Origin: Escherichia coli O127:H6 str. E2348/69
GTDB taxonomy: Bacteria > Pseudomonadota > Gammaproteobacteria > Enterobacterales > Enterobacteriaceae
Length of the DNA: 64,000 nt
NCBI RefSeq assembly: GCF_000026545.1
Contig: NC_011601.1
Direction: 5' to 3' (one strand)
The first letter of the stretch is position 1, and each line of letters opens with the position of its first letter. The position numbers and the translations under genes are program-made. The notes beneath the pieces were generated by a model. It did not search any database. It was not told the origin of the DNA and saw nothing but the letters and a program-made list of their open reading frames with translations. Positions 28,895 through 29,077 of this stretch are shown in pieces.

Positions 28895-29027
28895 TTTTTC
28901 TTTCCTCTATAACTCATTGATTTTAATTGCAAAAACCATATAAAGACCAAAATCAAAAAGAAAATACAAAGAAAGGGCTATTTTTGCTTTACATGGGCTA
29001 TATATGGATCAATACTTATATCCGAAG

Positions 29028-29049
29028 GGATAACACGGCGGTGTTATCC
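29028..29049. promoter_or_regulatory. Candidate operator: perfect 9-bp inverted repeat in the repressor/ner divergent region
   Basis: ggataacac-ggcg-gtgttatcc, with another GATAAC half-site at 29054-29059, just upstream of the ner start. Confidence 0.4.
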
Positions 29050-29077
29050 GCACAGATAACTTTTAAGGGTAACCTAA

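What the first reader, a model, noticed from the sequence alone, without database searches (positions are those of the whole stretch)
28895..29077. Perfect palindrome in the repressor/ner divergent control region
ggataacac-ggcg-gtgttatcc (29028-29049) with a further GATAAC half-site lies between the divergent repressor gene and ner. This is a candidate operator for the lysis-lysogeny switch.
Basis: seen in the sequence. Interest (0 to 1): 0.3.

Follow-up and report, generated by a model that had tools for sequence, protein, structure and literature searches.

The report
Ner-type operator of Mu-like prophage
A conserved 22-bp inverted repeat just downstream of the early promoter of a Mu-like prophage in E. 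coli E2348/69 is most likely the binding site of the phage's small Ner (Cro-like) regulator, which makes it an expected, ordinary part of a phage lysis-lysogeny switch rather than something new.

Summary
GGATAACAC-GGCG-GTGTTATCC sits at 29028-29049, between a CI-type repressor gene (28247-28894, minus strand) and a Ner-family gene (29077-29313). This is a Mu-like prophage inserted in eutC of E. coli E2348/69.

The repeat is the middle of a four-half-site array (core CGGATAAC, 29017-29060) that forms three overlapping dyads. Its centre lies 22.5 bp past the -10 of a promoter-like site, TTTACA-17-AATACT. A promoter-like site is found at this position in all nine loci compared. Phage Mu has the same 22.5-bp offset between its early promoter and the dyad I recall as its Ner site.

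Three diverged lineages (Ner 91, 86 and 73% identical) keep all 16 core arm bases, while the 4-bp spacer differs in each (GCAG, CGCC, CAGC). One lineage (Ner 74%) has lost the left arm but keeps the overlapping right dyad.

In two independent cases, the repressor's N-terminal half and the left part of the intergenic region are replaced, yet the array and ner stay unchanged.

Best reading: an operator for Ner, giving negative autoregulation of the early promoter. It is not an immunity operator. No binding data exist, and the transposase's N-terminal domain is co-inherited with the array, so it cannot be excluded. This is a new member of a known kind, of low interest.

The parts
28247..28894 (-). 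Repressor gene (215 aa; RefSeq WP_000197710.1) with a CI-type HTH at residues 20-80
   Evidence: ORF; PF07022 E 2e-6 above cutoff; PHROG 3037 'transcriptional repressor' E 4.5e-58; RefSeq CDS
28895..28997 (.). Left part of the intergenic region. It travels with the repressor's N-terminal half as an exchangeable cassette and carries purine-rich AAAGAAA boxes (28957-28964, 28969-28976; inverted copy 28896-28903). This is the inferred location of the repressor's own operators.
   Evidence: 47% identity to L002-type relatives, against 97% for 28998-29076; megablast breakpoint at query position 799 = window 28998; repeats; the L002-type cassette has its own 10-bp perfect inverted repeat abutting the -35
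28988..29016 (+). Early-promoter (Pe)-like site: -35 TTTACA (28988-28993), 17-bp spacer, -10 AATACT (29011-29016). Predicted start near 29022-29024.
   Evidence: Only promoter-like match in 28000-29400. A promoter-like match with its -10 ending 58-61 nt before the ner ATG is present in all 9 loci scanned. The same scan finds Mu's TTTACA-17-TATCTT.
29007..29010 (.). GATC (Dam site) abutting the -10 hexamer
   Evidence: Sequence; GATCAA invariant in A1 and present in 7 of 8 rows of A6 (absent in the Sodalis row), and present in 46%-Ner lineages L034-L036
29017..29034 (.). Left dyad P1: TATATCCG-AA-GGGATAAC (half-sites h1 and h2), degenerate
   Evidence: 3-mismatch match to GTTATCCGNNCGGATAAC; 16-nt direct repeat with 29045-29060 at 26-bp spacing (D1)
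29028..29049 (.). Central dyad P2, the reported palindrome: GGATAACAC-GGCG-GTGTTATCC (half-sites h2 and h3)
   Evidence: Arms are invariant with four spacer versions across lineages. The centre, 29038.5, lies 22.5 bp after the -10 and 38.5 nt before the ner ATG.
29043..29060 (.). Right dyad P3: GTTATCCG-CA-CAGATAAC (half-sites h3 and h4). It is 7/8 paired here, 8/8 in most E. coli relatives (CGGATAAC), and a continuous 18-bp palindrome in the Edwardsiella-type lineage.
   Evidence: It is retained in the lineage that lost the left arm of P2.
29065..29069 (+). Shine-Dalgarno-like AAGGG, 7 nt before the ner ATG
   Evidence: Sequence; AGG invariant in A6; inference
29077..29313 (+). ner-like gene (78 aa; RefSeq WP_000989761.1)
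   Evidence: PF13693 E 9e-26; PDB matches EnrR 7f9h E 5.8e-17 and Mu Ner 1neq/1ner E 9e-13; 43% identical to Mu Ner and 50% to D108 Ner
29313..31355 (+). MuA-like transposase (680 aa) with a Mu Ialpha-like N-terminal DNA-binding domain. It is co-inherited with ner and the array.
   Evidence: PF09299, PF02316 (residues 7-140), rve; N-terminal identity across lineages

Best explanation
The palindrome is the core of the operator for the prophage's Ner-like protein, the Cro-like early regulator. The early promoter (-35 28988-28993, -10 29011-29016) starts transcription near 29023 and transcribes ner, the transposase gene and the MuB-like gene. As Ner accumulates, monomers assemble on the CGGATAAC half-sites between 29017 and 29060. 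These cover the start site and the first ~40 bp of the transcript, and so turn early transcription down (negative autoregulation). The repressor's own operators lie further left, in the cassette-linked half of the intergenic region that overlaps the -35. Shown here: the sequence, its conservation pattern, its linkage to ner rather than to the repressor's DNA-binding half, and its positional equivalence to dyads in Mu and D108. Inferred: which protein binds, the start site, and the regulatory outcome. Whether Ner also shuts off repressor transcription, as I recall for Mu, cannot be judged, because no convincing leftward promoter was found.
For: 1. Function. All 16 core arm bases (GATAACAC/GTGTTATC) are identical in the Edwardsiella-type (Ner 91%), L031 (86%) and Sodalis (73%) lineages. 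Background identity of the surrounding non-coding DNA is 0.70, 0.74 and 0.57, and the spacer reads GCAG, CGCC and CAGC. The product of the chance probabilities is about 4e-9.

2. Linkage. In E. coli relatives with another cassette, repressor residues 1-120 are 43% identical and the left intergenic region 47%, while 28998-29076 is 97% identical and Ner 100%. A second, independent swap (E. coli JCKP02 versus Yersinia phage vB_YpM_5) shows the same thing: Ner 78/78, right intergenic region 65/70, left 51/113, repressor N-terminal part 43%. Fourteen E. coli genomes carry one cassette and 21 the other, always with the same ner module. Strain TUM9812 carries one of each, next to identical arrays.

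3. A different motif for the repressor. The other cassette has its own 10-bp perfect inverted repeat, CTTTCTTTTC-N10-GAAAAGAAAG, abutting the -35. TTTCTTT-type boxes sit upstream of the -35 in every lineage and are unrelated to GATAAC.

4. Position. The distance from the -10 end to the dyad centre is 22.5 bp both here and in Mu (promoter; dyad 1023-1064). The distance from the dyad centre to the ner ATG is 38.5 nt here, 37.5 in Sodalis and 39.5 for the D108 inverted repeat CCGTGAGCTAC-N8-GTAGCTCACGG. That these Mu and D108 dyads are the mapped Ner sites is from my own knowledge of Tolias & DuBow 1986 and Kukolj et al. 1989, which the library does not hold. A D108-like relative (L042) keeps the inner arms and changes the spacer, the same pattern as here.

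5. Family behaviour. The closest solved relative, EnrR, is a monomer; two copies assemble on palindromic DNA, and one of its two top ChIP peaks lies upstream of its own gene (PMC9023278).
Against: No binding or transcription data exist for this element.

The transposase's Mu Ialpha-like N-terminal domain is inherited together with ner and the array (100, 70, 64 and 49% identity across lineages). Linkage therefore cannot separate Ner from the transposase.

The repressors of all lineages share the recognition-helix core STLNNY, so a common repressor site cannot be formally excluded.

The lineage with 74% Ner identity has lost the left arm (AGATTATCC). The 'perfect palindrome' as such is therefore not essential there.

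For EnrR, binding was barely detectable with a 4-bp spacer. This suggests the tighter dyads P1 and P3, rather than P2, may be the true binding units.

The half-site shows no similarity to the Mu or D108 Ner sites.
Confidence: 0.6

Rival explanations
1. It is an operator of the CI-type repressor: an O3-like site downstream of the early promoter, bound alone or in competition with Ner, that helps shut off early transcription in the lysogen.
For: It lies in the repressor/ner control region and covers the predicted start site. The recognition-helix core STLNNY is shared by the repressors of all lineages, so they could share one site. From my own knowledge, Mu's weak operator O3 lies in the same area as the Ner site.
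Against: Two independent swaps of the repressor's N-terminal half and the left intergenic region leave the array untouched. Both cassettes co-reside in one genome with identical arrays. The GATAAC motif does not recur in the cassette-linked half, which has its own, different repeats.
Confidence: 0.15
2. It is a transposition enhancer-like site bound by the Mu Ialpha-like N-terminal domain of the transposase. This would be the counterpart of Mu's internal activation sequence, about 1.1 kb from the left end.
For: The transposase has a PF02316 domain, while the repressor is of an unrelated type, so any enhancer must be a separate site. The array is co-inherited with the transposase N-terminus and lies about 1.1 kb from the prophage left end at 27935, like the Mu enhancer (own knowledge).
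Against: In Mu the enhancer is the O1-O2 region upstream of the early promoter, not the dyad downstream (own knowledge, plus the layout). The strict dyad symmetry with a free spacer fits paired HTH monomers. The arms stay identical while the transposase N-terminus falls to 64-70% identity. TTTCTTT boxes resembling Mu's CTTTT operator motif are available upstream.
Confidence: 0.08
3. It acts as RNA: a 9-bp stem with a tetraloop at about +5 to +27 of the early transcript that stabilises the mRNA or modulates ner translation.
For: Predicted hairpin with MFE -19.9 kcal/mol for the 68-nt leader, z -3.7; it is also formed in the L017, L031 and Sodalis versions. The variable loop with a constant stem is compatible with a hairpin.
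Against: No compensatory changes occur; the arms simply never vary. In the 74% lineage three uncompensated changes destroy the stem (z -1.2), while the adjacent half-sites stay conserved. The loop matches no conserved tetraloop type. There is no Rfam match. The flanking half-sites h1 and h4 have no role in a hairpin. A hairpin could still exist as a by-product.
Confidence: 0.07
4. It is a site for a host protein (for example a DnaA-box-like TTATCCGCA), or a chance palindrome without function.
For: TTATCCGCA (29045-29053) matches the DnaA box TTATCCACA at 8 of 9 positions (sequence, own knowledge). A 9-bp inverted repeat arises by chance in about 2% of simulated regions. The pattern GATAACAC-N4-GTGTTATC also occurs in 5 unrelated viral contigs.
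Against: The bases that would complete a DnaA box vary between lineages (GCA, GCG, GTC, TAC), whereas the dyad arms do not. The conservation statistics exclude a neutral sequence. In 10 of the 15 viral contigs with the pattern, it lies upstream of a ner homologue of this family.
Confidence: 0.04

Closest known systems
Ner operator of phage D108 (11-bp perfect inverted repeats CCGTGAGCTAC separated by 8 bp)
   Same: A perfect inverted repeat between the early promoter and ner; dyad centre 39.5 nt before the ner ATG, against 38.5 here. The adjacent gene encodes a Ner-family protein 50% identical to this one. A D108-like relative keeps the inner arms and changes the spacer, the same evolutionary pattern.
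   Different: The arm sequence is unrelated, the arms are 9 bp rather than 11, and the spacer is 4 bp rather than 8. Here the dyad is embedded in four half-sites forming three overlapping dyads. The neighbouring repressor is CI-type here but Mu c-type in D108. That Ner binds the D108 repeat is from my own knowledge (Kukolj et al. 1989), not re-read here.
Ner operator of phage Mu (two 12-bp ANPyTAPuCTAAGT elements in inverted orientation, 6 bp apart, downstream of the early promoter)
   Same: The same -35 hexamer (TTTACA) and 17-bp spacer in the early promoter, and exactly the same 22.5-bp distance from the end of the -10 to the dyad centre. Ner is 43% identical.
   Different: The Mu dyad is imperfect (78% over 18 nt) and unrelated in sequence, and lies 55.5 nt before the ner ATG. 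Mu's repressor and transposase share a DNA-binding domain; here they do not.
EnrR of Edwardsiella piscicida bound to palindromic DNA (PDB 7f9h/7f9i; PMC9023278)
   Same: The closest solved relative of this Ner-like protein (E 5.8e-17). It is monomeric, two copies assemble on a palindrome, and one of its two top ChIP peaks is upstream of its own gene.
   Different: EnrR prefers AT-rich, near-continuous palindromes (AATAAATNATTTATT) and acts genome-wide as an H-NS antagonist; its binding was barely detected with a 4-bp spacer. The base-contacting Arg47 of EnrR aligns with Asp40 here (alignment), so a different specificity is expected.
Lambda Cro at OR (functional analogue)
   Same: A small early HTH protein binding dyad operators in a divergent repressor/early-gene control region and turning down early transcription (own knowledge).
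   Different: The protein family is unrelated. Lambda's repressor and Cro share the same operators, whereas here the array appears separate from the repressor-linked cassette.

Membership tests
Ner-type operator of transposable (Mu-like) phages | Lies between divergently transcribed repressor and ner genes at the left end of a Mu-like element | tested here: met
   Repressor 28247-28894 (-), ner 29077-29313 (+), followed by MuA-like and MuB-like genes. Prophage left end at 27935.
Ner-type operator of transposable (Mu-like) phages | Dyad-symmetric element placed just downstream of the early promoter, covering the start site and early leader | tested here: met
   Dyad centre 22.5 bp after the -10 of TTTACA-17-AATACT, identical to the offset in Mu. 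A promoter-like site is found at this position in 9 of 9 loci. The promoter and start site are predicted, not mapped.
Ner-type operator of transposable (Mu-like) phages | Adjacent gene encodes a Ner-family (PF13693) protein | tested here: met
   PF13693 at 90.1 bits against a cutoff of 25; PDB matches to EnrR and Mu Ner
Ner-type operator of transposable (Mu-like) phages | Evolves with ner rather than with the repressor | tested here: met
   Two independent cassette swaps leave the array and ner unchanged; both cassettes occur in one genome. The transposase N-terminus is equally linked.
Ner-type operator of transposable (Mu-like) phages | Specifically bound by the cognate Ner protein, repressing the early promoter | not testable with these tools
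   Needs EMSA or footprinting and reporter assays
Ner-type operator of transposable (Mu-like) phages | Sequence similarity to the Mu or D108 Ner sites | tested here: not met
   No similarity of the half-sites. This is not a strict requirement, because the Mu and D108 sites also differ from each other.
Immunity (repressor) operator | Co-varies with the repressor's DNA-binding domain in relatives that carry a different repressor cassette | tested here: not met
   Repressor residues 1-120 are 43% identical and the left intergenic region 47%, but the array region is 97% identical; the second example is
Immunity (repressor) operator | Motif repeated at several operator sites across the control region | tested here: not met
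   GATAAC-type half-sites occur only at 29017-29060. The cassette-linked half carries different repeats.
Structured RNA leader element | Base pairing maintained across relatives, with compensatory changes | tested here: not met
   The arms never vary where the stem exists, so covariation is uninformative. The stem is destroyed by three uncompensated changes in the 74% lineage. No Rfam match.

The most novel reading that the evidence does not exclude
The array is a two-register operator. The invariant half-site h3 (GTGTTATCCG, identical in 7 of 8 compared sequences; GTGTTATC in all 8) belongs both to the central dyad P2 (arms facing inward, 4-bp spacer) and to the right dyad P3 (arms facing outward, 2-bp spacer). 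Occupancy of one dyad would then exclude the other. Two different proteins could compete for h3: Ner against the transposase's Ialpha-like domain, or Ner against the repressor. That would couple early transcription to transposition or immunity.
Probability: 0.08. Interest if true: 0.45.

Novelty: new member of a known kind. Interest (0 to 1): 0.2.

Why it matters
The analysis assigns a specific, testable operator to an uncharacterised but fairly common family of Mu-like prophages. The ner module occurs in 37 of 5,426 complete E. coli genomes, and relatives occur in Yersinia phages, Edwardsiella and Sodalis. It also shows how the control region is built. An exchangeable cassette (the repressor's DNA-binding half plus the left operator region) sits next to a constant module (early promoter -10, Ner operator, ner, transposase). 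That layout predicts which prophage pairs should be heteroimmune, and supplies a third natural Ner half-site sequence for work on Ner-family DNA recognition. It does not change what is known about how such switches work.

Tried and rejected
1. A scan of IMG/VR for GATAACAC-N4-GTGTTATC gave 15 contigs. Ten are the same prophage family upstream of ner; five are unrelated contexts. By my rough estimate of the collection's size, about that many unrelated hits are expected by chance. There is no evidence of a wider regulon.

2. DnaA box. TTATCCGCA matches at 8 of 9 positions, but the box-specific bases vary among lineages. Rejected.

3. IHF. GATCAATACTTAT resembles WATCAANNNNTTR with two mismatches, but it coincides with the conserved -10. 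Not pursued.

4. RNA element. A hairpin is predicted but is lost in one lineage, and there is no Rfam match.

5. A leftward repressor promoter inside or next to the array. Nothing reaches the scan threshold in the window. A relaxed scan finds only a weak TGGTCT-18-TAAAAT near the repressor start here, and a TTATCT-18-GATAAT inside the array only in the JCKP02/YpM5 lineage. Whether Ner also controls repressor transcription is left open.

6. A survey of inverted repeats upstream of about 70 distinct Ner-homologue loci shows many dyads, but it is too noisy for a family-wide statistic because distant promoters could not be placed reliably.

7. Literature. The original Mu and D108 Ner footprinting papers, the Mu review and the E2348/69 genome paper are not in the library. 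Statements about them are marked as own knowledge, and only the sequences were re-checked.

8. The repressor has no solved relative by sequence.

Full report
**Context**

The window is the chromosome of enteropathogenic E. coli E2348/69 (100% identity). At 27935 a Mu-like prophage begins with TGTGGGGTAGTG. It interrupts eutC, which RefSeq annotates as a pseudogene lacking its N-terminus.

The left end of the prophage has the classical layout of a transposable phage:
- a leftward repressor gene at 28247-28894 (215 aa; PF07022 CI-type HTH; PHROG 'transcriptional repressor');
- a 182-bp intergenic region;
- a rightward ner-like gene at 29077-29313 (78 aa; PF13693, E 9e-26);
- a MuA-like transposase at 29313-31355 and a MuB-like ATPase at 31374-32267.

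The Ner-like protein is 43% identical to Mu Ner and 50% to D108 Ner. Its closest solved relatives are EnrR (7f9h, E 5.8e-17) and Mu Ner (1neq/1ner).

**The observation**

The inverted repeat GGATAACAC-GGCG-GTGTTATCC is at 29028-29049, as reported, and GATAAC recurs at 29055-29060. The 22-mer pattern is unique in the 64 kb even with three mismatches. A 9-bp perfect inverted repeat with a spacer of 10 or less appears in about 2% of simulated intergenic regions of this composition. On this window alone that is suggestive, not decisive.

Four half-sites with the core CGGATAAC alternate in orientation:
- h1, TATATCCG, 29017-29024;
- h2, GGGATAAC, 29027-34;
- h3, GTTATCCG, 29043-50;
- h4, CAGATAAC, 29053-60.

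They form three overlapping dyads. P1 (29017-34) and P3 (29043-60) are the only two matches in the window to GTTATCCG-NN-CGGATAAC at up to 3 mismatches, against 0.26 expected. They lie 26 bp apart (D1). The reported palindrome (P2) is made of the two inner half-sites.

**Promoter context**

The only sigma-70-like match in 28000-29400 is TTTACA (28988)-17-AATACT (ending 29016) on the plus strand. A promoter-like match whose -10 ends 58-61 nt before the ner ATG is present in all nine loci scanned. The same scan applied to phage Mu returns TTTACA-17-TATCTT (993-1021). That hexamer score agrees with the published description of Mu's early promoter, 5/6 and 4/6 (PMC3820752).

The distance from the end of the -10 to the dyad centre is 22.5 bp here (29016 to 29038.5). 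It is also 22.5 bp in Mu (1021 to 1043.5, inverted repeat 1023-1064). In D108 the perfect inverted repeat CCGTGAGCTAC-N8-GTAGCTCACGG (996-1025) is centred 39.5 nt before the ner ATG. The figure is 38.5 nt here and 37.5 nt in the Sodalis relatives.

That these Mu and D108 dyads are the experimentally mapped Ner-binding sites comes from my own knowledge (Tolias & DuBow 1986; Kukolj et al. 1989). The papers are not in the library; only the sequences were re-checked. With a start site about 7 nt after the -10, the array covers roughly -6 to +38 of the early transcript.

**Conservation**

Relatives were collected from complete E. coli genomes, GenBank phages, IMG/VR and GTDB genomes. In alignment A6 the 16 core arm positions (GATAACAC/GTGTTATC) are identical in three diverged lineages:

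| Lineage | Ner identity | Spacer | Identity of surrounding non-coding DNA |
|---|---|---|---|
| Edwardsiella hoshinae type | 91% | GCAG | 0.70 |
| IMG/VR lineage L031 | 86% | CGCC | 0.74 |
| Sodalis prophages | 73% | CAGC | 0.57 |

The window's spacer is GGCG; the three lineages differ from it at 8 of 12 spacer positions. The product of the chance probabilities is about 4e-9. Invariant arms with a free spacer are the signature of a protein-bound dyad.

One lineage behaves differently: E. coli JCKP02 and Yersinia phages vB_YpM_5/6, with Ner 74% identical. Its left arm reads AGATTATCC, so P2 is broken, but h3 and h4 (dyad P3) are intact. Conversely, P3 is degenerate in L031 and Sodalis, where P2 is intact. 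The core of h3 (GTGTTATC) is invariant in every sequence. The functional unit is therefore the half-site array, not the 'perfect palindrome' as such.

**Which protein?**

Two natural experiments bear on this.

First, among E. coli prophages with a 100% identical Ner there are two main repressor cassettes. Against the E2348/69 type, the 08-00022 type has:
- repressor residues 1-120 only 43% identical, but residues 121-215 at 95%;
- the left intergenic region (28895-28997) 47% identical;
- the right part (28998-29076), which holds the -10 and the array, 97% identical.

The megablast breakpoint falls at 28998. Fourteen complete genomes carry one cassette and 21 the other. Strain TUM9812 carries one of each at different loci, with identical Ner proteins and palindromes; one of the two copies has a truncated transposase.

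Second, within the 74% lineage, JCKP02 and vB_YpM_5 have identical Ner (78/78) and a 93% identical right intergenic region. Their left regions are 45% identical and their repressor N-terminal parts 43%.

So the array segregates with ner, not with the repressor's DNA-binding half. The cassette-linked half has its own repeats of a different type. The 08-00022-type cassette has a 10-bp perfect inverted repeat, CTTTCTTTTC-N10-GAAAAGAAAG, abutting the -35. The E2348/69 type has AAAGAAA boxes, and every lineage has a TTTCTTT-like box upstream of the -35. These are the natural candidates for repressor operators.

The behaviour of the family fits as well. EnrR is monomeric, two copies assemble on palindromic DNA, and one of its two top ChIP peaks is upstream of its own gene (PMC9023278).

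**Limits**

No binding or transcript data exist.

The transposase carries a Mu Ialpha-like N-terminal domain (PF02316) and is inherited with ner and the array (N-terminal identity 100, 70, 64 and 49% across lineages). Linkage cannot exclude it. I rate it low for two reasons: in Mu the enhancer is the upstream operator region (own knowledge), and the arms stay identical while that domain diverges to 64-70%.

The repressors of all lineages share the helix core STLNNY, so a shared repressor site cannot be formally ruled out.

An RNA hairpin is predicted in the leader (-19.9 kcal/mol, z -3.7). It is destroyed without compensation in the 74% lineage, and nothing in Rfam matches.

EnrR binding was barely detectable with a 4-bp spacer. 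This hints that the tighter dyads P1 and P3 may be the true units, with P2 arising as their junction. Against that, the conserved CAC/GTG extension of the P2 arms suggests P2 is real too. This cannot be settled computationally.

**Verdict**

The interpretation as an operator of the switch is supported by comparative evidence, with the refinement that it is most likely the Ner operator (confidence about 0.6) rather than an immunity operator. It is a new member of a known kind, and its interest is low. Its value lies in annotating a moderately common prophage family and in offering a clean, testable half-site array.

Noticed in passing
window 27935 (junction), 27507-27934: The Mu-like prophage's left end (TGTGGGGTAGTG...) interrupts eutC, so the ethanolamine ammonia-lyase small subunit gene of E2348/69 is split. 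Relatives sit in trg, ycgB, mscM, araJ and an aldehyde dehydrogenase gene, as expected for near-random Mu-type insertion.
   Followed up: partly
window 29007-29010: A GATC (Dam) site directly abuts the -10 hexamer of the early-promoter-like site. GATCAA is kept in every lineage of this Ner clade except the Sodalis prophages, and also in prophages whose Ner is only 46% identical (GATCAATGAT in L034-L036). It might couple early (transposase) transcription to methylation state, as in IS10/Tn5. Untested.
   Followed up: no
window ~28530-28997; L002, L003, L006, L101, L102: An exchangeable cassette comprises the repressor's N-terminal half plus the left 100 bp of the intergenic region. Fourteen complete E. 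coli genomes carry the E2348/69 type and 21 the other type(s), all with the same ner module. Strain TUM9812 carries one of each (one copy with a truncated transposase).
   Followed up: yes
L002 ~2259-2288 and equivalents in L003, L007, L011, L014; window 28896-28903, 28957-28976: The other cassette type has a 10-bp perfect inverted repeat, CTTTCTTTTC-N10-GAAAAGAAAG, abutting the -35. The E2348/69 type has AAAGAAA(A/G) direct repeats and an inverted TTTTCTTT. These are candidate repressor operators. They recall the CTTTT motif of Mu's operators, although the repressor here is of a different family.
   Followed up: partly
window 28881-28894 and 29080-29093: The first codons of the repressor gene and of ner form a 14-nt inverted repeat at 86% (ATGACTAGAAATGA versus ATGGTTAGAAATGA; both proteins start with x-R-N-D/E). 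It is seen only with the E2348/69-type cassette and is possibly chance.
   Followed up: no
L004 ~2545-2580, L001 ~2507-2542: In the JCKP02/vB_YpM_5 lineage, the changed left arm creates a minus-strand promoter-like TTATCT-18-GATAAT inside the half-site array, and three TATCCG repeats with a 13-bp period. This could be a leftward promoter overlapping the operator. No equivalent scores in the window.
   Followed up: partly
window 29313-29520 versus 28247-28894: The transposase has a Mu Ialpha-like N-terminal domain (PF02316), whereas the repressor is CI-type (PF07022). The Mu arrangement, in which repressor and transposase compete for the same sites through homologous domains, therefore cannot apply. 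Where this transposase domain binds is unknown.
   Followed up: partly
L092 788-807 and L093 3738-3757 (IMG/VR contig 3300009408_000001, 197 kb): The same GATAACAC-N4-GTGTTATC dyad occurs twice in one large, unrelated viral contig, each time after a terminator-like hairpin and about 30 nt before an ATG. It is probably an operator of an unrelated regulator.
   Followed up: no
L076, L077 (Candidatus Sodalis endolongispinus): Two copies of a decayed prophage keep the dyad although ner is disrupted after about 33 codons. These are remnants rather than evidence of selection in that host.
   Followed up: no
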